From the IMG/VR virus record IMGVR_UViG_3300045988_010396, positions 32,001 to 96,000 of that record: DNA of 64,000 nt. One strand, written 5' to 3'. The translations under genes and the position numbers were made by a program. Below the pieces are notes generated by a model, which had not been told where the DNA came from, did not search any database, and saw only the letters and a program-made list of their open reading frames with translations. Below are positions 1,188 to 32,191 of the stretch, piece by piece (positions within the stretch are counted from its first letter, which is position 1; every line of letters begins with the position of its first letter). The stretch is from a virus.

Positions 1188-1362
1188 ATAACTATGATTT
1201 ATAATAAACTAAATATATCTGTCCACCAAGAGTAAACATATTTACTATAGCCTCTCTTGGTATACCAAGTTCATTTGCCTGGCTTATTATACCCCTAATT
1301 GTCTGACCTACTATACAAGTCATTACTTTATTCTTCTCACCCATGTTCTAACTATTTTATAG

Positions 1363-1436
1363 TTTCGGGAGTAGGACTCGAACCTACAACCTCCAGCTTA
1401 TGAGGCTGGTTAGCTACCATTGCTAGCATCCCGAGA
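1363..1436 (-). tRNA. tRNA-Met (CAT)
   Basis: reverse complement has GGTTCGAGTCC T-arm, a 7-bp acceptor stem and anticodon loop CTCATAA. Confidence 0.8.
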
Positions 1437-1612
1437 TATTGCCAAGATTTGGTATGGTACTTGGCATTGTAAGGTTAACCTTATACTTACACCCCCAATC
1501 ACCTACACCTATTAAGCTGTTGTTTATACAGGTCAGCTCCTGTTGAGGTTTACCTAGTAGCATTGGGTGTTACTCTATCACTGTAGGTAAGACAGTTTTT
1601 AGTAACTTGTAG

Positions 1613-1686
1613 AGCCTCCCCTCAGAATCGAACTGAGACTCCCTGTTTACAAGGCAGGTTTGCTAAACCATTAACACTAAGGAGGC
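1613..1686 (-). tRNA. tRNA-Thr (TGT)
   Basis: acceptor GCCTCCT/GGGAGGC, T-loop TTCGATT, anticodon loop CTTGTAA. Confidence 0.7.
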
Positions 1687-1690
1687 ATAG

Positions 1691-1772
1691 TACCCCTGAC
1701 AGGAGTTGAACCTGCAATCCCCAAGGGCGTTGGTGTTTAAGACCAATGTGTATTCCATTCCACCACAGGGGC
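1691..1772 (-). tRNA. tRNA-Leu (TAA), type II
   Basis: 82 nt, acceptor GCCCCTG/CAGGGGT, anticodon loop CTTAAAC, 15-nt variable arm. Confidence 0.75.
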
Positions 1773-1779
1773 ATTATAC

Positions 1780-2232
1780 TTAGTAAGGTCTCAAATCACA
1801 TAACTCAAAGAGGTACTTGTATTTCAGTATATTATGTATGAATGTCTCACACTCAGACCTAATTCCTGCATATAGAGTTCCTTCTGGAATATTCTCATAG
1901 AACTTAGTAGTTCCTGCTTTGACCTCATTGATGAAGTCAATAGCATTAAGAGCATCACTAGGAGCACCTTTAATCACATTAGGTTGCATATGTCCAAGCA
2001 ATCCCTGATATTCCTCTGCCAATCCATCCTGATAGTCTGAGATAATACCTAGGAACTCATCTAGGTAAACATGAATATTCTTCTTAGGAGCTGCCCAATG
2101 CAGATTCTTACACTTAGTCTTCCAACCCTCCAGAAGGTTAATGAAGCTAATGAAGAATTGACTAGGGTTCTCATCTTGAGAAGGCTTGAACATCTCATCC
2201 ATTAGCTGATTATCTAGAAAAACACTATCCAT
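1780..2232 (-). CDS. hypothetical protein embedded in the tRNA array
   Basis: 150-aa ORF between two tRNA-Leu genes. Confidence 0.45.
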   Translation of the reverse strand: MDSVFLDNQLMDEMFKPSQDENPSQFFISFINLLEGWKTKCKNLHWAAPKKNIHVYLDEFLGIISDYQDGLAEEYQGLLGHMQPNVIKGAPSDALNAIDFINEVKAGTTKFYENIPEGTLYAGIRSECETFIHNILKYKYLFELCDLRPY

Positions 2233-2318
2233 TTCTCTAATTCTTTATTTGATACTGCAAAGTTAAGCTAAATATTTAACCTATGCAAGTAAATTACATT
2301 ATTTAACTAAATTATCTG

Positions 2319-2401
2319 TACCCTCCAAGGGACTTGAACCCTTATGTACTTAGTACACTAGTTTCTAAGACTAGCCTGTATACCCATTCCAGCAGGAGGG
2401 T
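2319..2401 (-). tRNA. tRNA-Leu (TAG), type II
   Basis: anticodon stem CTAGT/ACTAG, loop CTTAGAA, long variable arm, T-arm GGGTTCAAGTCCC. Confidence 0.75.
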
Positions 2402-2411
2402 GTAAGCTCTC

Positions 2412-2858
2412 TTATAGAGAGCTATATTCTTTTGTAGCATCAAAGCTAGGGCAAGCTTTTGAGCTAAAGTCTCTGTGCCCATGTATAGATGCTTGAGGGT
2501 ACTTAGTCTTTAACTCCTTAAGTAACTTAACTAATGACTGCTTCTGCTGAGCAGTCCTAGTATCTTTAGGTGTCTTGCCATCAGAAGCACATCCTCCTAT
2601 ATAGCATACTCCAATAGAGTTAGCATTATGGCCAGCACAGTGTGCACCTATAATAGACTCATCTCTACCTGTATGTATAGAACCATCTCTATATATTACA
2701 TAATGATAGCCTATATCAGAGAAGCCCCTTTGAAGGTGCCACTGTCTTATAGTATCTACACTATAGTCTTTACCTTCTGGTGTGGCACTACAATGTACTA
2801 TTATTTCATTTATTTTTCTTGCCATACATATATTATAAAACTTATCATGTTCCCCCAC
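2412..2858 (-). CDS. N-acetylmuramoyl-L-alanine amidase (Amidase_2/PGRP fold), probable endolysin
   Basis: IVHCSAT...DIGYHYVI..DG.I..GR...AH...NSIGV..IGG pattern typical of T7-lysozyme-like amidases. Confidence 0.8.
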   Translation of the reverse strand: MGEHDKFYNICMARKINEIIVHCSATPEGKDYSVDTIRQWHLQRGFSDIGYHYVIYRDGSIHTGRDESIIGAHCAGHNANSIGVCYIGGCASDGKTPKDTRTAQQKQSLVKLLKELKTKYPQASIHGHRDFSSKACPSFDATKEYSSL

Positions 2859-2922
2859 TAGGAGTCGAACCTAGCTCTCAGGATTAAAAGTCCAGAGTAT
2901 CCACCATCAATGCTTTGGGGGA
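2850..2922 (-). tRNA. tRNA-Lys (TTT)
   Basis: acceptor TCCCCCA/TGGGGGA, anticodon loop CTTTTAA, T-loop TTCGACT. Confidence 0.75.
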
Positions 2923-2994
2923 GTGAAGCAGGGTCTTTTTAAGAGGTTTCATCTTATTCCTAGGAAAGATTTTTACCCTGCACACCCTCTAGTG

Positions 2995-3068
2995 CGCCTC
3001 CACAAGGACTTGAACCTTGAGTCCCCTGCTTAAGGGGCAGGTGCTTTAACCAATTCAGCTATAGAGGC
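2995..3068 (-). tRNA. tRNA-Lys (CTT)
   Basis: acceptor GCCTCTA/TGGAGGC, anticodon stem CCTGC/GCAGG, loop CCCTTAA. Confidence 0.75.
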
Positions 3069-3074
3069 TTATAG

Positions 3075-3149
3075 ACTTGTAGGTGGGATTTGAACCCACG
3101 AATCACCAGTTTTGCAGACTGTGCCCTTAGACCACTCAGGTACTCCAAG
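3075..3149 (-). tRNA. tRNA-Cys (GCA)
   Basis: T-arm GTGGGTTCAAATCCCAC, anticodon loop CTGCAAA; one acceptor mismatch. Confidence 0.65.
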
Positions 3150-3153
3150 ATAG

Positions 3154-3231
3154 TACTGGCAGAGGGACTTGAACCCCCATGTGACCAATTACCCTTTCTA
3201 GACTGTATAAGAGTCAGGGGATATGCCAGTA
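3154..3231 (-). ncRNA. atypical tRNA-like element (anticodon unassigned)
   Basis: acceptor ACTGGCA/TGCCAGT and T-arm GGGGGTTCAAGTCCCTC are clear, but no canonical D-arm or anticodon arm; internal hairpin GACT-CTTATAC-AGTC. Confidence 0.4.
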
Positions 3232-3238
3232 TGTTGGG

Positions 3239-3311
3239 GTGTCTGATGGGAGTTGAACCCACACTACTTGGAGCCACAATCCAAGGCTCTGACCAATTAA
3301 GCTACAGACAC
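3239..3311 (-). tRNA. tRNA-His (GTG)
   Basis: extra 5' G(-1), discriminator C, anticodon stem TTGGA/TCCAA, loop TTGTGGC. Confidence 0.8.
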
Positions 3312-3313
3312 AG

Positions 3314-3385
3314 TTCTGATGAGTGGACTCGAACCACTAGCTACTGCCTTATGAGAGCAGCTTTCTACCATTGAAATACATCAGA
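3314..3385 (-). tRNA. tRNA with CAT anticodon (second copy; Met/fMet or Ile-lysidine type)
   Basis: acceptor TCTGATG/CATCAGA, anticodon loop CTCATAA. Confidence 0.75.
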
Positions 3386-3391
3386 ATATGT

Positions 3392-3465
3392 AGGTACAAT
3401 AGGACTTGAACCTATAACCTCTTGAATATCAGTCAAGTACTCTAACCAATTGAGTTATGTACCTA
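3392..3465 (-). tRNA. tRNA-Ile (GAT)
   Basis: acceptor AGGTACA/TGTACCT, anticodon stem CTTGA/TCAAG, loop CTGATAT. Confidence 0.8.
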
Positions 3466-3469
3466 TATG

Positions 3470-3542
3470 TGGGAAAGATAAGAATCGAACTTATATCCAA
3501 GGATTTTCAGTCCTCTGCATAGACCATCTTTGCTACTTTCCC
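3470..3542 (-). tRNA. tRNA-Phe (GAA)
   Basis: acceptor GGGAAAG/CTTTCCC, discriminator A, anticodon loop CTGAAAA. Confidence 0.75.
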
Positions 3543-3545
3543 ATT

Positions 3546-3619
3546 GCAGATAGAGTAAGACTCGAACTTACATCTAAGGGTTAACAGCCCCTTGTTCTAA
3601 CCTTTGAACTAAAGACCCA
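3546..3619 (-). tRNA. tRNA-Asn (GTT)-like; acceptor strands do not pair in my reading (possible pseudo-tRNA)
   Basis: D-arm, anticodon arm (loop CTGTTAA) and T-arm resemble E. coli tRNA-Asn, but 5' GGGTCTT does not pair with 3' TCTATCT. Confidence 0.4.
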
Positions 3620-3627
3620 TTATTTGT

Positions 3628-3699
3628 TGCTCCTACAAGACTCGAACTTGTGACCTTTGGTATGTAAAACCACTGTTCTTAACCACTGAACTAAGGAGC
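3628..3699 (-). tRNA. tRNA-Val (TAC)
   Basis: acceptor GCTCCTT/TAGGAGC, D-arm GTTC..GAAC, anticodon loop TTTACAT. Confidence 0.7.
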
Positions 3700-3783
3700 A
3701 TTGATAGGGTAGTTTCTTTAACCTCTAACTACCAAAAGAGGGTTCTAGCAAAAGCTCAACATTATGAAACACGGAAACTAATG

Positions 3784-3856
3784 TGGAGAATGAGAGACTC
3801 GAACCCTCTAATATAGCTTGCAAAGCTATCAGTTTAGCCAGTTAGCTTAATTCCCC
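3784..3856 (-). tRNA. tRNA-Ala (TGC)
   Basis: anticodon stem ATAGC/GCTAT, loop TTTGCAA, discriminator A. Confidence 0.75.
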
Positions 3857-3861
3857 ATTAG

Positions 3862-3934
3862 TATGGGTACTTGGACTCGAACCAAGGACAACTACATCCC
3901 AAATGTAGCATTCTACCTACTGAATTACACCCAT
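3862..3934 (-). tRNA. tRNA-Pro (TGG)
   Basis: anticodon stem CTACA/TGTAG, loop TTTGGGA, T-arm CTTGGTTCGAGTCCAAG. Confidence 0.8.
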
Positions 3935-3940
3935 ATATTG

Positions 3941-4023
3941 CGGAGAGATGAGGTCCCGACCCCCAAGCATTACTGCCCCCATTGTTTTCAAGACAAGTCC
4001 CAGTCCCACTGAGTTATCTCTCC
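3941..4023 (-). tRNA. tRNA-Ser (TGA), type II
   Basis: acceptor GGAGAGA/TCTCTCC, discriminator G, anticodon loop CTTGAAA, long variable arm. Confidence 0.7.
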
Positions 4024-4075
4024 ATTTGCCTACCTACCACTGTAGGATAGGACTTTGGTTTTGTTATAAGTGTGC

Positions 4076-4146
4076 AGACTATGAGGGAATTGAACCCTAA
4101 CCTTCACATTGACAGTGTGATATGCAAACCACTACACTACATAGTC
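4076..4146 (-). tRNA. tRNA-Asp (GTC)
   Basis: acceptor GACTATG/CATAGTC, anticodon stem TCACA/TGTGA, loop CTGTCAA. Confidence 0.7.
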
Positions 4147-4158
4147 TATATAATTTAG

Positions 4159-4230
4159 TACCCCCTGATAGAATCGAACTATCATTCTAAGTTTAGAAGA
4201 CTCATGTATTATCCATTATACTAAGAGGGC
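4159..4230 (-). tRNA. tRNA-Arg (TCT)
   Basis: D-arm GTAT..ATAC, anticodon loop CTTCTAA, T-arm GATAGTTCGATTCTATC. Confidence 0.7.
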
Positions 4231-4238
4231 ATCTCTAG

Positions 4239-4310
4239 TTGGGACTAGAGGTCTCGAACCTCTGCTATAAGAGCCAAAATCTCATGTGACTGCCACTACA
4301 CCAAGTCCCA
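4239..4310 (-). tRNA. tRNA-Gln (TTG)
   Basis: acceptor TGGGACT/AGTCCCA, anticodon loop TTTTGGC, T-arm AGAGGTTCGAGACCTCT. Confidence 0.7.
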
Positions 4311-5057
4311 CTCTGAATTACTCTGCAAAGGTAAGCAAATTTTTTGAATCTACCAAATTTTACTGTAAGAAATTTAATTATTAGAGTCCAGAAAGGTATT
4401 AAGATTACTCTTTTCTATATAATACCTTGTTACCTCTTTGTATTTTAATTAATAATGTGTTCTCAGTATCTACCTCATTAAATCCACCATCAAATATAGG
4501 GTCATAAGCCCAAGATACCATTACTCCATTAAAATACCTATATGTAAGAATATCGCCTCTCTGCAAAGTTATTTTCATAGCCCCATTAATTTATTAGCCC
4601 AACTTTCTGTATAGAAATGATAGTACCCTTCCTTATGATTGTCACAACAATGGATATAACCATTTAACCAAGCATAAAGTATTGAAGGAATACCTAAATT
4701 ATTAGGTATAATATATCCCTAGCCTGTGTTGCCAAGCTTGTTTCATATTAGTTCTGCACTTCGTTGGACCCGTTCTTGGTTATACCCCTAAAGCATATTT
4801 ACCTGTACCTTTTCTCAGTAGTATTGGTTATGCTAATCCAACTTATAACAAAACACTTTGTACCAGTATCGGGGACACCTCATTCCTATATATTGGAACT
4901 ACTACCCAACTTCTGCTCCATTACTTGATTACCTCATGGAGGATAGAGACATACTACCTATCTCTCTGGCAGGTGCAAAGGTAAGTATAAAATCTGATAT
5001 AACCAAATATTTTAAGAAAGTTTAACTATACACTATGGTCTAGGTTAAAAAATTTTA

Positions 5058-5074: not shown

Positions 5075-5410
5075 AATTTTTGTGGTACTTTATTGGTATG
5101 AGGGGGGTATAATATACTCACACCTCCCCTGCCTCTGGCTTGTTGGGGCTTGTCCCCGTGGGTTGAAATGATACATACTAACACTAGCCAAGATATTGTT
5201 AACTTATATTTATAACAAAAATGAGAGAAGAATTAGACATGCTCTTTCTGTTGGAGCATTTCAGTCTTGAAGATTTAGTAAAGGCTGAAGAAGAGTGTAT
5301 TGCTGCTATTAAAGCTTATCTCAAAAATGTGAAACATCACATGGATTATATAGCTATGCATCTATAATAAGATAAATAAAAGATTAGGGTGAGGGGGACT
5401 AACTCTCACC

Positions 5411-9403: not shown

Positions 9404-9489
9404 ACTCCCTTAGCTCAGTTGGTTCCGCAAGGCTTGAGAGCATCGGACTTTTAATCCGAGGGTCATGGGTTCGAGTCCCATAGGGAGTA
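9404..9489 (+). tRNA. tRNA-Lys (TTT)-like with a roughly 13-nt insertion in the D-loop
   Basis: acceptor ACTCCCT/AGGGAGT, anticodon stem TCGGA/TCCGA, loop CTTTTAA, T-arm ATGGGTTCGAGTCCCAT; D-arm GCTC...GAGC encloses extra CCGCAAGGCTTGA. Confidence 0.55.
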
Positions 9490-9506: not shown

Positions 9507-9826
9507 GGGGCTGTATTTGGTCTTGACTGGTGGCTACTTGGTATGAGGACATGCAGAGACTGATGGAGAGACATCAAAACTTTAGGTGGCAACAGAATTT
9601 CTGCACCTGTAGCTCTTGCTGCTTAAGCAATCTACTGAGTTAGTCACTGACTTGGAAACAGAATAGTGACAAGACAAGATTTCTTGCATAGATAAATGCA
9701 AGTGGTGGACTATGTTGACAATCCAGTCAACCCCAGCAGAGAACCAACTGCATAATAAAGTGGTAAGCATGTGTAATCCTTATATTGAGAGCTATTAGGA
9801 CAGGGGTTCGACTCCCCTCAGCTCCA
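9507..9826 (+). ncRNA. ssrA: tmRNA (SsrA-like)
   Basis: 5' GGGGCTGTATTTGG...GACTGG and 3' GGACAGGGGTTCGACTCCCCTCAGCTCCA closely match the E. coli ssrA ends; acceptor GGGGCTG/CAGCTCC; internal tag frame GGC AAC AGA ATT TCT GCA CCT GTA GCT CTT GCT GCT TAA = ...NRISAPVALAA*. Confidence 0.8.
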
Positions 9827-9902
9827 GAGGCACGTTGTTAGATACTTCCACGTAGTGTGCCTTGGGTTAAAAGCTAGATTCTAACAAAAAAAAAAAGATT
9901 AT

Positions 9903-10205
9903 ATGTTAATAACAGAAAGAGCAAAAAGGAAAATAAATACTTTATTAGATAGTACTAATGATTGTATAAACTATCCTAAAACTAATAAAGATGGTTATGG
10001 GGATATTCAAGAGATTGTGGAGGGTAAAAAGCTCCACATGTTAGCTCATAGAGTATCTTATCAGTTATATACAGGAGAAGACATATCACCTGATGATATA
10101 ATATGTCATAGATGTGATAATCCTGCTTGTATTAATCCTAGACATTTGTTCAGAGGCACTCACTCAGATAATATTAAAGATAAGGTTTGTACCCATTATT
10201 CATAA
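9903..10205 (+). CDS. HNH homing endonuclease
   Basis: [13 protein letters not shown]...[15 protein letters not shown]...HSDN (HNH_3-type). Confidence 0.7.
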
Positions 10206-11005: not shown

Positions 11006-12429
11006 ATGTGTTCAAAAGTTAATCCTAACCTAAAGCCTGTACCTAAGTTTGAAAACACTCAACTGGCAGGTGGTTATGGTGCATTAGCTGCCAGGCAGTC
11101 CAATGTAGCATTGCTTAGAAGAGCAGTGCTGGCTAATCTCCTTTGAGAGGATGTAGCATATATGGATGGTGAGAGAGTAGCCAATGAAATACAGAGGTTA
11201 ATACCTCTGTGCCCTGCTGAGGATGTATATAATATAGCTCTTGAAGCTAGGTTAATGCAGAAACTGAGGCATACTCCATTGTTTATAGCAGTGGAAATGT
11301 GCAAGTATCCTGAACATAAGTTATTTGTTAAGGACTTGCTACCAAAGATAGTTACAAGAGCTGATATGCTCACTGACTTCTTGGCTATATATATATATAT
11401 TGGAAGGATGGCAAGCATCCTATCTGTAACCAAGCTAAGAAGGGTCTTGCTCTAGCCTTCCACAACTTCAATGAGTATAAGTTGGCTAAGTATGACAGAG
11501 ATGCTGCTATCAAGCTCAGGGATGTGATGTTCTTGGTACATGCAAAGCCTAGAAACCAGTATGAGCAGGAGTTGTTCAATAAGGTAGCTGAGAGAACTCT
11601 CACACCACCTGAGACATGGGAAGTCATGTTAAGTAGAGGTGATGACAAGAAGGCTACTTGGACTAAGCTCATTACAGAGGGTAAGATTGGAGGTCTGGCT
11701 ATGTTGAGAAACATAGCTAATATGCAGAAGGCCAATGTGGATAGAAGGACTATCCAAGATGGCCTTAAGACACTGAGAAGCTCAATGCTATTACCTCTTG
11801 ACTTCTGGAAGGCTGCTAGAATGAACCCAGCATTTGAGAGAGACATTGAGGATGCTATGATAGAGGCATATAAGAACTTACCTAAACTTCCTGGCAAGAC
11901 ACTATTTATAGTGGATGTATCAGGTTCTATGGGTTTTTTAACCTCTGGTAGCTCTCAGTTCAACAGGATGGACCAAGCTTGTGCTATGGCTATCTTGGCA
12001 GCTAATCAGTGTGAGGACTATGAGCTTGTAGCTACAGCAGGTAATGATGATTCTAAAATAAGTGCCTCAGAGTGGATTGAATATCCAAAGAGAGGTTTTG
12101 CTCTTGCTCCACAGATAATGGATACCAGGCATAGGATTAGTGGTGGAGGTATATTCACCAGGCAGTGCCTAGAGTGGTGTAAGGATAAGTTCAAAGACAA
12201 GAAGTTTGATAGAATTATCATATTCTCAGACTCTCAAGACTGTGACTATCCTGAGAAGAGAGTACCTAAACCATTTGGTACATATAACTATATTGTAGAT
12301 GTATCTGCTCATACAAGAGGAGTGAACTACAAGGGTGTATGGACTGCTGAGGTTTCAGGCTGGTCAGAACATTTCTTGACTTATATTGCAGCTCTTGAGG
12401 GATTGCAGAATAAGTTTGAGGAGCAATAA
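11006..12429 (+). pseudogene. rsr: Ro60 / TROVE-domain plus vWA RNA-binding protein (Rsr-like), interrupted
   Basis: N-terminus ...QLAGGYGAL.. (Ro60 NAGGY motif) runs into an in-frame TGA at 11144-11146; continues in the same frame to 11455; after the (TA)7 tract at 11386-11400 the homologous reading moves to frame 1 (...FHNFNEYKLAKYDRD..VMFLVHAKP like Ro60 ALAVTKYKQRNGW..LLRLSHLKP); AMLRNIANMQKA and vWA MIDAS FIVDVSGSMG match human Ro60 ALLRNLGKMTA / LLAVDVSASM. Confidence 0.8.
11386..11400. repeat. (TA)7 dinucleotide tract at the frame junction inside the Ro60 gene
   Basis: tatatatatatatat; losing one TA unit would join the upstream (frame 2) and downstream (frame 1) TROVE segments. Confidence 0.9.
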
Positions 12430-12580
12430 ATAAAAAGAGCCTATAAGTGAAAGTCAGAGTTACTTCAATATTGGGATATTTTGACACTCTGACAAAGTGT
12501 TCTATAGGCTTTTAAGCTCTTCTATAGTTAGAAAGAGTTTCGAGACCCGATTGCCTTTGATGCATCTCGGGTCTTGCGAT

Positions 12581-12717
12581 GGAGGAGTTAGCTCAGAGGT
12601 TAGAGCAGTTAAACAAGACACTCTACATACTGTTCTCTAGTAATAGTAGTGATTTGTAGAGATACTTCAAGCACTTTCATTGCACAGGTCATAGGTTCGA
12701 GTCCTATACTCCTCCCA
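12581..12717 (+). ncRNA. tRNA-like RNA with about 85-nt insertion in place of the anticodon arm; candidate YrlA/Y-RNA-like tRNA mimic (copy 1)
   Basis: acceptor GGAGGAG/CTCCTCC plus CA, D-arm GCTCAGAGGTTAGAGC, T-arm ATAGGTTCGAGTCCTAT; insertion contains AGTAGTG...ATACTTCAAGC. Confidence 0.6.
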
Positions 12718-12740
12718 ACTTTGTTGGATTTTGTGTGTTT

Positions 12741-12777
12741 TACCTCACTGGTATGTGAATATAGGTGAGGTTTTTAC
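12741..12777 (+). terminator. Rho-independent terminator after Y-RNA-like copy 1
   Basis: ACCTCAC...GTGAGGT hairpin followed by TTTTT. Confidence 0.55.
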
Positions 12778-12780
12778 AAG

Positions 12781-12918
12781 GCGGAGTAGCTAAATGGTTA
12801 AAGCAACACCCTTACAGAATTTATCTGGTAAAGCAGTAGTGGGTTGTCAGGGTTACTTCAAGGTTATAGCATTAGTTTTGGGTGCTAAAGAATGTAAGTT
12901 CGAGTCTTACCTCCGCCA
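12781..12918 (+). ncRNA. tRNA-like RNA with inserted module; candidate YrlA/Y-RNA-like (copy 2)
   Basis: acceptor GGCGGAG/CTCCGCC, D-arm GCTAAATGGTTAAAGC, T-arm GTAAGTTCGAGTCTTAC; anticodon-stem-like CACCC...GGGTG encloses about 66 nt containing GCAGTAGTGGGTTGTCAGGGTTACTTCAAGG. Confidence 0.6.
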
Positions 12919-13127
12919 CTTATTTACCTACCTCACCTAGCATAGTTATACAGGATAAGACCCATTATGATGGAGCACCGATGAAACTATCCTAGCCACG
13001 CTGGTATTGCTATTCAGTGAGTGAGAAAATGAATAGCCTCGAAGCATAGTGGAGATAACGTCAAGGAGTACCATCCTTAGCAGCTATGTAAAATTGGTTG
13101 ACAATCTGGAAAGACAGATAATAAAAT

Positions 13128-13257
13128 GGGGGAGTAGCTAAATTGGTTACTATACTCTTGCTGTTATTCTCTGGAAGCAGTAGTGTTAGCAAAGAGTTAC
13201 TTCAAGCATTCATCTGGTAAATGAAAGTATATTGGTTCGAGTCCAATCTCCCCCGCA
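13128..13257 (+). ncRNA. tRNA-like RNA with inserted module; candidate YrlA/Y-RNA-like (copy 3)
   Basis: acceptor GGGGGAG/CTCCCCC, T-arm ATTGGTTCGAGTCCAAT; insertion GGAAGCAGTAGTGTTAGCAAAGAGTTACTTCAAGC. Confidence 0.55.
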
Positions 13258-13457
13258 AAATAGAGGTTAGTGAATGTTACAGTTACTTCAATTATGATTA
13301 GTATATTGGTTTAACATTCAATCAAGAAAGGAGTAGATTTATTCACAACTTTTTTAACTCAACCCAACTGTGGCAGAGTTGTTCTACCTCTATTAAGAGG
13401 GCTATGGTAGTAATACTATAGTCCTCTTTCTTTTTGAAATTGTGTTAGCTACATATA

Positions 13458-13874
13458 TTGTATTACTTAAAAAAAAAAAGTATGGCAAAAACAAATGAAA
13501 GTGTCGGGAGAGTCGAGGACTTGAAGGCACAAGTGAAGGACCTTCTAGGCTTAGATGCCATGATGGATGAGAGTGTGACTAAGGAAATGAAGGACGAACT
13601 TATCGCTCAGGCTAAGAACAAAGGTGATAAGCACATCGAAGAGGTGATGGACACCATTGAGAAGGCACTTGAGAAGGTTAAGGACCCTGAGTTCAAGGCT
13701 ATCATCGCCTCTATCATATGGACTAAGTGTCCTATAGGTATGCAGAAGTCCTGCATTGAGTTTCACAACAAGCTGTTGTGTGTTGCGATGGCTGCTCATA
13801 TGGATAAGCAGACTAAGGGTAATTCCCTTGCAGGTCTTGCACTGCTGTCAACTGTACTTGGAGATAAGAGATAA
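13458..13874 (+). CDS. hypothetical protein
   Basis: 138-aa ORF, K/E-rich. Confidence 0.4.
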   Translation: MYYLKKKSMAKTNESVGRVEDLKAQVKDLLGLDAMMDESVTKEMKDELIAQAKNKGDKHIEEVMDTIEKALEKVKDPEFKAIIASIIWTKCPIGMQKSCIEFHNKLLCVAMAAHMDKQTKGNSLAGLALLSTVLGDKR

Positions 13875-20343: not shown

Positions 20344-20874
20344 ATGGCAAAAGCATTGATTTTAGCTAAGACTGGGTTTGGTAAATCCAGTTCACTGGTT
20401 GGTGTACCCTCTGCTGGTATATTAGGCTTGGACCCTAAGGAGACTTATCTCCTTAGCTGTGTTAATAAGCCTCTGCCTATCAAGGGTGCATCTAAGATTT
20501 ATGTGCCTATACCTATGCAGGGTATTACTCCTGCTAACTTAGGTTCAGTCATAGGTAAGGGCAACAGGATTATCACCAAGGATGCCAAGATTGTAGCTGC
20601 TGCTATAGAGTTGCTAATCAATTCACCCTTCAAGAACATAGTAGTTGATGATATGAACTATCTATCGCAGGACTACTATATGAAGAATGCCATGAAAGGT
20701 GGTTGGGACACTCCTAAGCAGATAGGTTACAATATGGGTCTTATCTTTGACCAGATTGACAATGTGCCTGAGGATAAGAACATTATCTGTATGGCTCACT
20801 TTGAGACCTACAAGGATAAGAATGGTGACTCCATCTCTTACAAGTACAAATCAACTGGTAACATGGTAGCATAA
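20344..20874 (+). CDS. small P-loop protein
   Basis: N-terminal AKTGFGKSS Walker-A-like motif. Confidence 0.35.
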   Translation: MAKALILAKTGFGKSSSLVGVPSAGILGLDPKETYLLSCVNKPLPIKGASKIYVPIPMQGITPANLGSVIGKGNRIITKDAKIVAAAIELLINSPFKNIVVDDMNYLSQDYYMKNAMKGGWDTPKQIGYNMGLIFDQIDNVPEDKNIICMAHFETYKDKNGDSISYKYKSTGNMVA

Positions 20875-21084
20875 CATCTGCCATTATCTATCTAATTGCT
20901 GGAACACCCTAAAGACAACTGAACTACAAAGTAATTGGTAACAATAAGCTTGAATGTTTGAAAATCAGTTGTATTCTTAGTGATGGAGAAATGGGCAATC
21001 AGCAGCCAAGGGACTCTACGAGTTCAAGGTTCATCGACTATCCCCTGTTGTGGGGGAGTACATTTATAAAGTAATCAATTATAT

Positions 21085-21699
21085 TTGGAAATGGTAGACA
21101 ATAGAGAAGTACACATTTATGCATTAAGACATCCTGATACCTTAGAAATAAGGTATGTCGGTAAAACAGTGAGAAAATTAAGTAGAAGGTTAGGGAATCA
21201 TATTGCAAATGCTAAAGGTAACCAGCACAATAAGCATTTAAGTAATTGGATTCTTAATATCTTGAAGGAAAATAAGAAACCTGTAATAGAACTCTTGGAA
21301 ACTTGTCAAAGTAATAACTGGCAAGAAAGAGAGCAATATTGGATTTCTCAATTTCCTAATCTGATAAATCTCACTGCTGGAGGAGATGGATGTGTAGGTT
21401 TTATTCATGATTCTAAAGCTATAGAAAAGATTAGACAATCTAAATTTGGTACTAAACATTCTGTAGAATTTAAGGAAGCTATGAGTAAAAGGCTTAAAGG
21501 TGTGCCTCTTAGTGAAGAACATAAAAGTAAAATAGGTTTAGCTAATAAGGGAAGGAAGGCTTCGGAAACTGCAAGAAAGAGGCTATCAGAATCCCACAAA
21601 GGTATTACTCAGAGTGAGGAATCCAAAAGAAAAAGAAGTGAATCTATTAAACTTTGGTGGACTAAGAGAAAGTCTATTGAAGATATAGTCAAATCTTAA
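21085..21699 (+). CDS. GIY-YIG homing endonuclease
   Basis: HIYAL...IRYVGKT...R...N (GIY-YIG) with C-terminal K/R-rich NUMOD-like repeats. Confidence 0.75.
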   Translation: MEMVDNREVHIYALRHPDTLEIRYVGKTVRKLSRRLGNHIANAKGNQHNKHLSNWILNILKENKKPVIELLETCQSNNWQEREQYWISQFPNLINLTAGGDGCVGFIHDSKAIEKIRQSKFGTKHSVEFKEAMSKRLKGVPLSEEHKSKIGLANKGRKASETARKRLSESHKGITQSEESKRKRSESIKLWWTKRKSIEDIVKS

Positions 21700-31588: not shown

Positions 31589-32191
31589 ATGGAGTGTAGT
31601 ATTTGGATTTATCAAAAATTCTTAGTATCTTTGCACTTTGCAACTAAAGTTTTTGAAGATATGGAAGAAATTTGGAAAGACATTCCTGGATATGAGGGAT
31701 TGTACCAAGTTAGTAGTCTTGGAAGGTTCAAAGCTCTGAGTAGAGTAAGAAAGGGAATTTATGGAAATAGAATCTACAAGGAAAAGTTATTATCTCCTAA
31801 AGTGAATTTTGATAGGTACTACTATGTAACCTTAACTAAGGAAGGTAAGAAAACTAGTTATAGAGCACATAGACTAGTAGCTTTAGCTTTTCTTGGAGAT
31901 AGCAATCTAGTCATAGACCACATTGACGGTAATCCCTTGAATAATGAGGTTACTAATCTAAGATATGTATCTCAAGCTGAGAATGTTTCTAATCCTAATA
32001 CTATATGTAAGCAGTATAAGCCTGTTATACAGTTGTCTATGGATGATACTGTTATAGCTGAGTATCCTTCAGTTATGAGTGCTGCACTAGCAGTGGGAGC
32101 TTATAAATATGGGACTCATATAGGGCAGTGCTGTAATGGAAAGAGGACTACTGCATATAATTATAAATGGAAATGGAAAGAAAAAGTATAA
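31589..32191 (+). CDS. HNH homing endonuclease (NUMOD4 plus HNH_3)
   Basis: WKDIPGYEGLYQVSSLGRFKAL then AHRLVALAFLG...DHIDGNPLNN...N. Confidence 0.75.
   Translation: MECSIWIYQKFLVSLHFATKVFEDMEEIWKDIPGYEGLYQVSSLGRFKALSRVRKGIYGNRIYKEKLLSPKVNFDRYYYVTLTKEGKKTSYRAHRLVALAFLGDSNLVIDHIDGNPLNNEVTNLRYVSQAENVSNPNTICKQYKPVIQLSMDDTVIAEYPSVMSAALAVGAYKYGTHIGQCCNGKRTTAYNYKWKWKEKV

What the first reader, a model, noticed from the sequence alone, without database searches (positions are those of the whole stretch)
11006..13330. Ro60 (TROVE+vWA) gene followed by three tandem tRNA-mimic RNAs: a phage Ro60 / Y-RNA-like module
What the sequence shows:
- A TROVE+vWA protein with clear Ro60 similarity (NAGGY-like N-terminus, AMLRNIANM, vWA MIDAS FIVDVSGSMG).
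- Immediately after it come three about 130-138-nt elements. Each has a perfect tRNA acceptor stem, D-arm and GGTTCGAGTCC T-arm.
- In each, the anticodon arm is replaced by a 60-85-nt insertion, and the insertions share a motif (GCAGTAGTG...GTTACTTCAAG).

Established knowledge: bacterial Y RNAs (YrlA) are encoded next to rsr, contain a tRNA-like domain, and tether Ro60 to RNA-processing machinery.

Inference: this is a phage-borne Ro60/Y-RNA system. That would imply RNA surveillance or repair, or interference with host tRNA/rRNA turnover, during infection. The alternative is three tRNAs carrying unusual conserved anticodon-loop insertions, which would be equally unusual.
Basis: partly seen in the sequence, partly recalled or inferred. 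Interest (0 to 1): 0.9.

Follow-up and report, generated by a model that had tools for sequence, protein, structure and literature searches.

The report
Y RNA stems built into tRNAs
Next to a (here broken) Ro60 gene, this crAss-like gut phage carries five small RNA genes sharing one conserved stem that also occurs in the Ro60-partner "Y RNAs" of unrelated phages; in three of them the stem sits inside an otherwise complete tRNA whose anticodon changes rapidly between related phages.

Summary
A TROVE+vWA (Ro60) homologue lies at 11006-12429, but it is disrupted by a TGG>TGA change and an 8-nt (AT)n expansion. Relatives have an intact gene.

The three elements are not tRNAs that lost the anticodon arm. 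Each is a complete tRNA scaffold: Glu-UUC, Pro-UGG and Thr-GGU. Each carries a 53-66-nt insert, in the anticodon stem (28/29), the D-loop and the D-stem respectively.

The insert is a covarying two-helix module:
- P1a, NNN-GUUCU, P2 hairpin, UAGUG-NNN, P1b, UUACUUC.
- The same module occurs circularly permuted as two free-standing hairpins (12438-12510, 13261-13392).

Rfam finds no Y_RNA or YrlA here. However, YrlA-like RNAs beside Ro60 in Xanthomonas and Caulobacter phages have the same outer stem, internal loop and UUACUUC. UUACUUC sits where bacterial YrlA carries its proposed Ro60-binding motif. E1, permuted in silico, aligns end to end with one of them.

Best reading: these are Ro60-partner Y RNAs, a permuted YrlA variant with native tRNA ends. 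The module-bearing scaffolds occur in nearly all Ro60-positive relatives, including cultured crAss001, where the region is unannotated. Anticodons are hypervariable.

Splicing to yield working tRNAs remains a rival. Ro60 binding is untested.

The parts
11006..12429 (+). Ro60 (TROVE + vWA/MIDAS) homologue, disrupted in this genome by TGA at 11144-11146 and an (AT)7 run at 11387-11400 that shifts the frame
   Evidence: Pfam TROVE 41.6 bits. Full-length match to phage phiLo Ro60, PDB 9KOP/9L5Y. 50/50 relatives have TGG at the TGA site, and the relatives recovered by the alignment have (AT)3 or a non-repetitive equivalent at the repeat. 78% identical to crAss001 gp96, annotated 'TROVE domain-containing protein'.
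12438..12510 (+). Free-standing module hairpin H_A. Layout: P2b AGCCUAU, AAGUG-AAA, P1b GUCAGAG, UUACUUC, 20-nt loop, P1a CUCUGAC, AAAGUGUUCU, P2a AUAGGCU. It starts 9 nt after the Ro60 stop.
   Evidence: P1 7/7 and P2 7/7 complementary. MFE -23.8 kcal/mol, z -3.6. Homologues in relatives show compensatory changes.
12582..12716 (+). E1: tRNA-Glu(UUC) scaffold with a 61-nt module insert at 12610-12670, between anticodon-stem positions 28 and 29
   Evidence: Rfam tRNA 43.4 bits with a 74-nt insertion. Perfect cloverleaf after deletion; the only solution that survives the strictest ARAGORN threshold. Module CM hit 12620-12668, 62.3 bits. The permuted form aligns end to end with Olaya YrlA.
12780..12917 (+). 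E2: tRNA-Pro(UGG) scaffold with a module insert of about 65 nt (12797-12861) in the D-loop, flanked by the imperfect repeat GGUUAAAGC / GGUUAUAGC
   Evidence: ARAGORN cloverleaf after deletion. Module CM hit 12808-12859, 53.1 bits. The MFE fold keeps the module, anticodon arm, T-arm and acceptor stem as separate domains.
12918..13127 (+). 210-nt spacer conserved only in the closest relatives; possibly a further structured RNA; function unknown
   Evidence: 84-99% identical in L045, L001, L002 and L003 only. The consensus fold has little covariation. A sigma70-like site lies at 13098-13127.
13128..13256 (+). E3: tRNA-Thr(GGU) scaffold with a 53-nt module insert at 13153-13205, between D-stem positions 23 and 24
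   Evidence: ARAGORN cloverleaf after deletion. Module CM hit 13154-13203, 60.4 bits. Fold z-score -3.0.
13261..13392 (+). Free-standing module hairpin H_B. Layout: P2b UAGAGGU, UAGUG-AAU, P1b GUUACAG, UUACUUC, 78-nt loop, P1a CUGUGGC, AGAGUUGUUCU, P2a ACCUCUA.
   Evidence: P1 7/7 and P2 7/7. Fold z-score -3.2. Also found by the composite finder that detects the Olaya and CcrColossus YrlA outer stems and nothing in 877 kb of Ro60-negative background.
13395..13438 (+). Intrinsic-terminator-like hairpin plus T-run that closes the Ro60/RNA cluster
   Evidence: 15-bp stem followed by TCTTTTTG. The same arrangement closes the cluster in crAss001.

Best explanation
The 1-kb stretch after the Ro60 gene encodes five non-coding RNAs built around one conserved RNA module.

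The module:
- Two helices, P1 of 7-8 bp and P2 of 3-10 bp.
- A conserved asymmetric internal loop: 5'-NNN(G/U)UUC(U/C) on one strand and 5'-U(A/G)GUG-NNN on the other.
- A conserved UUACUUC directly 3' of P1.

My reading is that this module is the Ro60-binding stem of phage Y RNAs of the YrlA type. In proteobacterial phages the same stem encloses a circularly permuted tRNA-like domain. In crAss-like phages it takes three forms:
- (a) It stands alone as a hairpin, right after the Ro60 stop and after tRNA 3' ends.
- (b) In some relatives it encloses a whole tRNA.
- (c) It is capped at P2 and planted inside a complete tRNA scaffold, at the junction between the D-arm and the anticodon stem. This gives a Y RNA with native tRNA ends and an intact anticodon arm.

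Proposed mechanism:
- The early operon is transcribed. The gene is early in crAss001.
- tRNA-type end processing releases the units.
- Ro60 binds the module.
- The attached tRNA body acts as the effector or cargo domain, as the tRNA-like domain is thought to do in YrlA.

The anticodon loop evolves about five times faster than the rest of the scaffold. This suggests the cargo end interacts with something anticodon-specific on the host side.

Shown: the module, its covariation, its two permutations, its restriction to the Ro60 strand and neighbourhood, its sequence and architecture match to phage YrlA RNAs, and the anticodon variability.

Inferred: Ro60 binding, retention of the module in the mature RNA, and any role against host tRNA-directed functions.
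For: 1. RNA structure.
- Insert type: 94.7% of cells paired against 71% in shuffles. 8 of 11 pairs have changes on both sides. Slid controls give 32-53%.
- Hairpin type together with proteobacterial phage stems: 94.3% against 57%. All 15 pairs have changes on both sides.

2. Specificity.
- The covariance model gives 95 strong hits in 55 sources. All are on the Ro60 strand. All lie 0.1-0.8 kb after the Ro60 stop, or 3-5 kb after it in the most distant phages.
- There are 0 exact core motifs on the other strand.

3. Linkage to Ro60.
- In helicase-anchored loci, 31 of 33 Ro60-positive loci carry modules. None of about 22 Ro60-negative loci with enough upstream sequence do.
- Two phages of the same clade (L208, L211) have the Ro60 gene and RNA cluster replaced by unrelated sequence.
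- L206 keeps Ro60 and about 100 nt of conserved sequence after its stop, where its counterpart L020 has a module core, but has lost the tRNA-embedded copies.

4. Homology to known Ro60 partners.
- The Rfam YrlA model detects 2-3 tandem RNAs directly upstream of Ro60 in phages Olaya, CcrColossus and RHph_TM39, with E from 9e-9 to 6e-3.
- The Olaya and CcrColossus copies read P2b, UGGYG-UAGN, P1b, UUACUUC, tRNA-like cargo, P1a, N3-6-GUUCC, P2a. P2 is 9-11 bp with compensatory changes.
- UUACUUC occupies the position of the GNCGAAN0-1G motif that Chen et al. 2014 proposed as the Rsr contact (PMC4201824).
- One composite finder detects these stems and window H_B, and nothing in 877 kb of Ro60-negative background.

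5. Permutation. E1 with its P2 loop opened and its acceptor stem capped aligns end to end with Olaya YrlA #2. Score 105, against 46 for unpermuted E1 and 47 +/- 7 for shuffles.

6. Precedent. M. smegmatis YrlA is cut by RNase P in its acceptor-like stem and receives CCA in vivo. That gives the same topology in two pieces (PMC4201824).

7. No module-less allele of the scaffolds was found. IMG/VR gave 0 for the E1 scaffold. For the crAss001-type scaffold, metagenomes gave 0 without the module against 17 with it.

8. Anticodon loops include 8-9-nt loops, A33, A34, and Ser and Tyr anticodons on short-variable-arm scaffolds. From general knowledge of bacterial SerRS and TyrRS identity rules, this fits poorly with ordinary decoding tRNAs.
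Against: - No Rfam Y_RNA or YrlA hit in the window or in crAss001, even at E<=10.
- The bacterial motif GNCGAAN0-1G is absent.
- Nothing here tests Ro60 binding.
- The insertion point differs between families (28/29, D-loop, D-stem) and slides between homologues: GGUUAYUA lies 5' of the insert in the window's E3 and 3' of it in L036. That is easier to explain if the insert is removed than if a fixed three-dimensional RNP is required.
- Deleting the insert restores a flawless cloverleaf every time, with compensatory changes spanning the junction.
- The window's own Ro60 gene is broken while its RNAs are intact.
- In L044, L046 and L047 the modules lie 3-5 kb from Ro60, within a general tRNA/tmRNA island. 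Part of the linkage could therefore be shared location rather than shared function.
Confidence: 0.62

Rival explanations
1. The inserts are a new class of small intervening sequence. The module is the signal for an endonuclease plus a ligase (for example host RtcB). It is excised to give ordinary tRNAs: Glu, Pro and Thr here, Lys, Tyr, His and others in relatives. The free-standing hairpins are processing signals of the same machinery between genes.
For: - Deletion gives perfect cloverleaves with canonical anticodon loops in the window. In the anticodon-stem family it restores 5-bp stems with compensatory changes across the junction.
- The insertion site varies and slides, as for archaeal non-canonical introns.
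- Hairpins sit immediately 3' of tRNA ends.
- Changing anticodons would make sense for spare tRNAs that replace whichever host tRNA is depleted.
Against: - No known bacterial or phage machinery splices such inserts.
- By inspection I found no bulge-helix-bulge at the junctions.
- The 3' junction lies 0-5 nt after UUACUUC and the 5' spacer is 1-13 nt long, so there is no fixed ruler.
- No RNA ligase or splicing endonuclease was found among the window ORFs scanned.
- No intron-less allele exists in large collections.
- Many relatives have non-canonical anticodon loops or Ser/Tyr anticodons on class-I scaffolds.
- The colinear YrlA homologues keep the same junction unspliced (PMC4201824).
Confidence: 0.2
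2. The module is a small self-cleaving ribozyme, or the target of a host RNase, used in two permutations to cut the early transcript. This would be analogous to HDV-like ribozymes found 3' of tRNAs in gut phages.
For: - About 17 conserved unpaired nucleotides are framed by two covarying helices, and the module occurs in circular permutations, as hammerhead and twister ribozymes do.
- It is placed directly after tRNA 3' ends.
Against: - No hit to any ribozyme family in Rfam at E<=10.
- The same stem in proteobacterial phages frames YrlA-class RNAs; the YrlA RNAs characterised in bacteria are stable Ro60-bound species (PMC4201824).
- No conserved junction position is consistent with a single cleavage site.
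Confidence: 0.07
3. It is a DNA-level element with no RNA function of its own. Either TAGTG-N-TTACTTCAA is a phage promoter, or the insert is a miniature transposable element with ACTCT...AGAGT terminal inverted repeats that has landed in tRNA genes.
For: - Fixed spacing, strict strand bias and intergenic placement.
- A 9-nt imperfect direct repeat flanks the E2 insert.
- Homing-endonuclease genes are nearby.
Against: - Compensatory base changes occur in P1 and P2, including partners 20-95 nt away in the hairpin form. A promoter or a terminal inverted repeat does not need these.
- No presence/absence polymorphism.
- No copies elsewhere in the 64-kb window or in 1.4 Mb of related sequence outside the Ro60 neighbourhood.
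Confidence: 0.03

Closest known systems
YrlA-type bacterial and phage Y RNAs (Rfam RF02553; Chen et al. 2014, PMC4201824)
   Same: - Encoded next to Ro60 on the same strand, in tandem arrays.
- The outer stem, internal loop and UUACUUC match the YrlA-like RNAs of phages Olaya and CcrColossus.
- A tRNA-derived body is attached at the junction between D-arm and anticodon stem.
- E1 is colinear with Olaya YrlA #2 after circular permutation.
   Different: - No Rfam hit at any threshold.
- The tRNA body is unpermuted and complete, with open acceptor ends and a canonical anticodon arm.
- In the tRNA-embedded form the Ro60-type stem is an internal capped hairpin, not the RNA's termini.
- The free-standing hairpins have no tRNA-like domain.
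- UUACUUC replaces the bacterial motif GNCGAAN0-1G.
- The RNAs lie downstream rather than upstream of the gene.
[quoted passage not shown] 2014)
   Same: A Ro60-bound Y RNA whose tRNA-like part has a free acceptor stem with CCA. This is the same connectivity as E1.
   Different: The mycobacterial RNA reaches that state as two pieces cut from a permuted precursor. The crAss-type RNA is encoded that way as one chain.
Thermus phage phiLo Ro60 with Yrl1 and Yrl2 (PMC12135203; PDB 9KOP, 9L5Y)
   Same: A phage Ro60 (the best solved-structure match, E 3.8e-13) with two adjacent Y-like RNAs that it binds in vitro.
   Different: The phiLo Yrls were picked by a CGAA motif in a stem-bulge-stem and lie upstream of the gene. 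No tRNA scaffold is described for them.
Non-canonical tRNA introns of archaea and red algae
   Same: Short inserts in D-arms and anticodon stems whose removal restores the cloverleaf.
   Different: - By inspection there is no bulge-helix-bulge.
- Bacteria and phages have no known EndA-type splicing enzyme.
- The insert is a conserved structured module that also exists outside tRNAs.
Circularly permuted (two-piece) tmRNA genes, cited from general knowledge
   Same: A precedent that tRNA-derived functional RNAs exist in circularly permuted gene versions.
   Different: A different RNA family and function.

Membership tests
Ro60 / TROVE protein | TROVE (HEAT-repeat ring) domain above the Pfam threshold | tested here: met
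   PF05731, 41.6 bits against a cut-off of 23, on the frame-corrected product.
Ro60 / TROVE protein | C-terminal vWA domain with a MIDAS motif | tested here: inconclusive
   vWA_Ro60 19.2 bits, below the 27.7 cut-off. DVSGS is present, and the alignment to phiLo Ro60 runs through the vWA domain.
Ro60 / TROVE protein | Intact reading frame | tested here: not met
   TGA at 11144-11146 and a +8-nt (AT)n frameshift. Relatives are intact.
YrlA (RF02553) | Match to the family covariance model | tested here: not met
   No hit at E<=10 in the window or crAss001. Positive control: hits in three other Ro60 phages.
YrlA (RF02553) | Encoded adjacent to and co-oriented with a Ro60 gene | tested here: met
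   The first module core starts 14-26 nt after the Ro60 stop in 39 of 54 loci. All copies are on the Ro60 strand.
YrlA (RF02553) | Terminal stem carrying the conserved 5'-strand motif proposed to contact Ro60 (GNCGAAN0-1G) | tested here: not met
   The motif is absent. UUACUUC, the variant seen in phage YrlAs, sits at the equivalent position.
YrlA (RF02553) | Permuted tRNA-like domain in the order T-arm, closed acceptor-like stem, D-arm | tested here: not met
   E1-E3 have unpermuted complete tRNAs. H_A and H_B have no tRNA-like domain. E1 becomes colinear with YrlA only after in-silico permutation.
YrlA (RF02553) | Bound by Ro60 in vivo | not testable with these tools
   Needs RIP or EMSA.
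tRNA | Cloverleaf with a 7-nt anticodon loop, U33 and a purine at position 37 | tested here: met
   Met only after deleting the insert. As encoded, E1 scores 43.4 bits, while E2 and E3 give only partial hits below threshold. Several relatives have 8-9-nt loops or A33.
tRNA | Aminoacylation and decoding | not testable with these tools
Group I tRNA intron | Group I catalytic core of about 200 nt or more | tested here: not met
   The inserts are 53-66 nt. There is no Intron_gpI hit here, although the model does find one at 20774-21155.
Archaeal-type (BHB) tRNA intron | Bulge-helix-bulge at both junctions | tested here: not met
   By inspection of junctions and folds: the 5' spacer is 1-13 nt and the 3' linker 7-12 nt, asymmetric.

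The most novel reading that the evidence does not exclude
crAss-like phages, including cultured crAss001, make Y RNAs that are still real tRNAs: one-piece chimeras with processable acceptor ends and a freely re-programmable anticodon, tethered to Ro60. The anticodon end would be an evolving bait or adaptor for host anticodon-specific factors, such as anticodon nucleases or other tRNA-directed defences, synthetases or modification enzymes. The family would be the unpermuted ancestor-like form showing how YrlA Y RNAs arose from tRNAs.
Probability: 0.25. Interest if true: 0.88.

Novelty: new variant of a known kind. Interest (0 to 1): 0.72.

Why it matters
- Ro60 and Y RNAs are conserved from bacteria to humans, yet the role of the tRNA-like domain of bacterial Y RNAs is unknown.
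- Here the same Ro60-type stem is found fused to complete tRNAs, in the opposite topology.
- This occurs in relatives of the most abundant human gut phage family, including crAss001, which can be grown in the laboratory.
- In crAss001 the 905-nt region is unannotated, and the TROVE gene is an early gene.
- The find gives a tractable system for asking what the tRNA part of a Y RNA does.
- It supplies a plausible evolutionary intermediate between tRNA and YrlA.
- It reveals tRNA-like genes that standard tRNA finders miss in these phages.
- The rapidly switching anticodons point to a host-phage conflict centred on tRNA anticodon loops.

Tried and rejected
- Rfam at gathering and at E<=10 over the region and over crAss001: no Y_RNA, YrlA or ribozyme family; only tRNA hits.
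- Brute-force deletion plus ARAGORN. At default stringency it calls almost anything a tRNA, so I used threshold stepping instead.
- A loose 14-base pattern scan of IMG/VR for the motif returned mostly chance hits and wasted a scan.
- TGA-to-Trp recoding as the explanation for the in-frame stop. Rejected because very long late ORFs are open under the standard code, relatives have TGG, and a separate frameshift is present.
- Promoter reading. I checked the crAss-like promoter literature. Early phi14:2 transcripts have no common upstream motif, and no middle-promoter sequence is given in the text. Covariation argues for RNA.
- IS200/IS605-like ssDNA element (TTAC / TCAA ends, recalled from memory). 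Dropped because there is no presence/absence polymorphism and the module has distant covarying partners.
- Search for an RNA ligase or splicing nuclease among about 40 window ORFs: none. These ORFs form a replication module (PolA, NrdD, ThyX, helicases).
- Search for module-less alleles: none.
- The 210-nt spacer 12918-13127 as a hidden Y RNA. It is conserved only in the closest relatives, with little covariation.
- Literature: no paper in the library links Crassvirales to Ro60 or Y RNAs beyond calling gp96 a TROVE protein.
Full report
**What is at the coordinates**

The window is from a crAss-like phage of about 100 kb.
- Its closest relatives are IMG/VR contigs of 94-104 kb.
- The cultured Bacteroides phage crAss001 carries a 78% identical protein, gp96, annotated 'TROVE domain-containing protein'.

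The 11006-12429 product, once frame-corrected, behaves as a Ro60 homologue.
- Pfam TROVE scores 41.6 bits against a cut-off of 23.
- vWA_Ro60 is hit only weakly.
- It aligns over residues 25-464 with the solved Ro60 of Thermus phage phiLo, E 3.8e-13.

The gene is broken in this genome.
- The codon at 11144-11146 is TGA, where 50 of 50 relatives have TGG.
- An (AT)7 run at 11387-11400 replaces the (AT)3 or non-repetitive equivalent seen in the relatives recovered by the alignment. This adds 8 nt and shifts the frame.
- ORFs of 1372-2215 codons are open under the standard code. TGA recoding is therefore unlikely. This copy is a recent pseudogene or carries assembly errors.

**The three elements are complete tRNAs with an insert**

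Rfam finds no Y_RNA or YrlA in 12380-13480 even at E<=10. It finds only tRNA matches: 43.4 bits for 12582-12715 with a 74-nt insertion, and two partial hits.

Reading the sequence shows a canonical anticodon arm downstream of each insert. Deleting the inserts gives perfect cloverleaves:

| Element | Deleted span | Resulting tRNA |
|---|---|---|
| E1 | 12610-12670 | tRNA-Glu(UUC) |
| E2 | 12797-12861 | tRNA-Pro(UGG) |
| E3 | 13153-13205 | tRNA-Thr(GGU) |

ARAGORN is permissive when fed arbitrary deletions, so I raised its threshold stepwise. The solutions that survive are these. For the anticodon-stem family they are unique.

The inserts lie at different tRNA positions: between 28 and 29 of the anticodon stem (E1), in the D-loop (E2), and between 23 and 24 of the D-stem (E3).

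**The insert is a structured module that also exists on its own**

All inserts read, 5' to 3':
- a spacer of 1-13 nt,
- P1a (ACUCUNNN),
- NNN(G/U)UUC(U/C),
- a P2 hairpin,
- U(A/G)GUG-NNN,
- P1b (NNNAGAGU),
- UACUUC plus 0-5 nt.

On 34 distinct inserts from 54 related loci:
- 94.7% of pair cells are standard pairs, against 71% in shuffles.
- 8 of 11 pairs show changes on both sides.
- Slid controls give 32-53%.

A covariance model built from them finds 95 strong hits in 689 kb.
- All are on the Ro60 strand.
- All lie within 0.1-0.8 kb of the Ro60 stop, or 3-5 kb from it in the three most distant phages.
- Only the three known sites are found in the window.

The same two strands occur in the opposite order in free-standing hairpins: P2b, UAGUG-NNN, P1b, UUACUUC, a loop of 20-95 nt, P1a, NNN-GUUCU, P2a.
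- The window has two: 12438-12510, starting 9 nt after the Ro60 stop, and 13261-13392, starting 5 nt after the last tRNA. An intrinsic terminator follows at 13395-13438.
- Of 244 exact core motifs on the Ro60 strand (none on the other strand), 159 have a complementary partner strand downstream. In shuffled sequence the figure is 10 of 1220.
- In some relatives the hairpin loop is a full tRNA scoring 55-63 bits.

The module is thus one RNA motif used in two circular permutations. It is either capped at P2 and open towards a tRNA, or open at P2 and closed around a loop or a tRNA.

**Link to Ro60**

- In 39 of 54 loci the first module core starts 14-26 nt after the Ro60 stop. Most exceptions have an extra ORF or hairpin inserted there.
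- I anchored on a helicase gene 3.7 kb downstream and fetched 80 related loci. 31 of 33 Ro60-positive loci had insert-type modules. None of about 22 Ro60-negative loci with enough upstream sequence had any.
- Two phages of the same clade (L208, L211) have the Ro60 gene and RNA cluster replaced by unrelated sequence.
- L206 keeps Ro60 plus about 100 nt of conserved sequence after its stop but has lost the tRNA-embedded copies. Its counterpart locus L020 has a module core 17 nt after the stop.
- Physical linkage could explain part of this, so on its own it is only suggestive.

**The decisive comparison**

As a control for the negative Rfam result, I fetched the Ro60 loci of three other phages: Xanthomonas phage Olaya, Caulobacter phage CcrColossus and Rhizobium phage RHph_TM39.
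- The YrlA model finds two to three tandem copies directly upstream of each Ro60 gene, with E from 9e-9 to 6e-3. All are below the 69-bit gathering score.
- All carry (G)UUACUUC just after their first helix strand. This is the position where bacterial YrlA has GNCGAAN0-1G, the motif Chen et al. proposed as the Rsr contact.

Extending the Olaya and CcrColossus copies outward shows the full crAss-type architecture:
- P2b of 9-11 bp with compensatory changes,
- UGGYG-UAGN,
- P1b,
- UUACUUC,
- tRNA-like cargo,
- P1a,
- N3-6-GUUCC,
- P2a.

One composite pattern-plus-pairing finder detects eight such stems in those two phages.
- All eight are on the Ro60 strand and lie 0.15-1.1 kb upstream of the gene.
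- It also detects window H_B.
- It detects nothing in 877 kb of Ro60-negative crAss-like sequence.

Aligned together with the loops removed, crAss hairpins and proteobacterial phage stems share the conserved loop nucleotides. All 15 pairs covary: 94.3% paired against 57% in shuffles. The crAss members were chosen by a complementarity threshold, so the percentage is partly circular. The diversity of pair types is not.

Finally, I opened E1 at its P2 loop and capped its acceptor stem. The permuted E1 aligns end to end with Olaya YrlA #2, in this order: UAGUG, P1b, UUACUUC, a short anticodon-like hairpin, AGGUC, T-arm, acceptor stem, D-arm, linker, P1a, CUGUUC, P2a. The score is 105, against 46 for unpermuted E1 and 47 +/- 7 for shuffles.

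E1-type RNAs are therefore circular permutations of phage YrlA-type Y RNAs. Chen et al. showed that M. smegmatis YrlA is cut by RNase P in its acceptor-like stem and gains CCA in vivo. That yields the same connectivity in two pieces.

**Anticodon variability**

Within scaffolds that are at least 90% identical outside the anticodon loop, 17 of 30 pairs of distinct sequences have different anticodons.

| Positions | Per-site difference |
|---|---|
| Anticodon | 0.289 |
| Rest of the tRNA | 0.053 |

Fisher p is 5e-12, though the pairs are not independent.

Examples:
- The E3 scaffold carries GGU, GAU, AUU or CAU.
- The E2 scaffold carries UGG, UUG or an 8-nt loop.
- The E1 scaffold carries UUC, UUU, GCU or GUG.
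- crAss001-type copies have UUU, AUU or a 9-nt loop.
- Ser and Tyr anticodons sit on scaffolds with short variable arms.

From general knowledge, bacterial SerRS and TyrRS expect long variable arms. Not all of these can be ordinary decoders.

**Interpretation**

Best supported (about 0.62): the cluster encodes Ro60-partner Y RNAs of a new architectural variant. The module is the Ro60-binding stem and the tRNA is the cargo or effector domain.

Shown:
- structure and permutation of the module,
- its genomic restriction,
- homology to the outer stem of phage YrlA-like RNAs,
- anticodon hypervariability.

Inferred:
- Ro60 binding,
- retention of the module in the mature RNA,
- any function against host tRNA-directed factors.

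The main rival (about 0.2) is that the inserts are excised to give working tRNAs.
- For it: the flawless restoration of the cloverleaf, and the sliding insertion point.
- Against it: no known machinery, no fixed junction rule, no module-less alleles (0 against 17), the non-canonical loops in relatives, and the unspliced colinear YrlA homologues.

The ribozyme or processing-signal reading and the DNA-element reading are less likely, for the reasons listed under rivals.

**Novelty**

Phage Ro60 genes with adjacent Y-like RNAs are known (Chen 2014; phiLo 2025). Three things appear to be undescribed, since no paper in the searchable library connects Crassvirales with Y RNAs:
- the shared outer module with UUACUUC,
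- its use as a stand-alone hairpin,
- its insertion into complete, anticodon-switching tRNAs in crAss-like phages.

In crAss001 the 905-nt region is unannotated, and the TROVE gene is an early gene.

I rate this a new variant of a known kind, with interest 0.72.

Noticed in passing
window 9507-9829 (+): Phage-encoded tmRNA, 83 bits against the Rfam tmRNA model. Relatives also carry one near their Ro60/tRNA island.
   Followed up: partly
window 9404-9489 (+): A tRNA (66 bits) with a 14-nt hairpin-like insertion in the D-loop. ARAGORN cannot assign its anticodon; the anticodon loop reads CUUUUAA.
   Followed up: no
window 1362-4310 (-): An array of about 18 ordinary tRNA genes. One member, 3547-3618 (loop CUGUUAA), is called only by Rfam and has a poorly paired acceptor stem.
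   Followed up: partly
window 20774-21155 and 21085-21699 (+): A group I intron (51 bits) followed by or overlapping a GIY-YIG/NUMOD3 homing-endonuclease ORF, inside the replication gene block.
   Followed up: no
window 11387-11400: The (AT)7 run in the Ro60 gene is 8 nt longer than the (AT)3 or non-repetitive equivalent in the relatives recovered by the alignment. This looks like slipped-strand expansion or an assembly artefact. Together with TGA at 11144 it makes this copy non-functional.
   Followed up: yes
window 12918-13127 (+): A 210-nt spacer between E2 and E3, conserved only in the four closest relatives. It holds a hairpin CC(U/C)C-GAAGCAUAGU-GG(A/G)G. A near-consensus sigma70-like site (TTGACA-18-TAAAAT) ends one base before E3.
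   Followed up: partly
window 13324-13340; L264 (crAss001) 5148-5164: The loop of the last free-standing hairpin holds a conserved Shine-Dalgarno-like AAGAAAGGAGUAGAUUU in both the window and crAss001.
   Followed up: no
L264 (crAss001) 4416-4497; also L013: An extra hairpin of about 85 nt lies directly after the TROVE stop. Its outer stem covaries and its interior holds GCAGGUCCAAGUGAG, reminiscent of the metazoan Y RNA GGUCCGA motif. It is absent from the window.
   Followed up: partly
L011, L016, L018, L024, L037, L039, L046, just after the Ro60 stop: An ORF starting MLK(L/I)CKVCG is inserted between Ro60 and the RNA cluster in several relatives. It may be a mobile (homing-endonuclease-like) gene, but I did not scan it against any protein family.
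   Followed up: no
L034 7442-7513; L035 2805-2876; L033 5563-5635; L047 9795-9867: Uninterrupted tRNAs nested inside the loop of a free-standing module hairpin. Their 5' acceptor strand is formed by the conserved ACUUCAN of the module tail.
   Followed up: partly
L282 2227-2260; L283 1965-2000: Olaya and CcrColossus YrlA-like RNAs share an identical mini anticodon-like hairpin, UCGA-CUGUUAA-UCGA, right after UUACUUC / GUUCUUC.
   Followed up: no
window 9903-10205 and 31589-32191 (+): Two HNH homing-endonuclease ORFs (HNH_3; the second also has NUMOD4).
   Followed up: no
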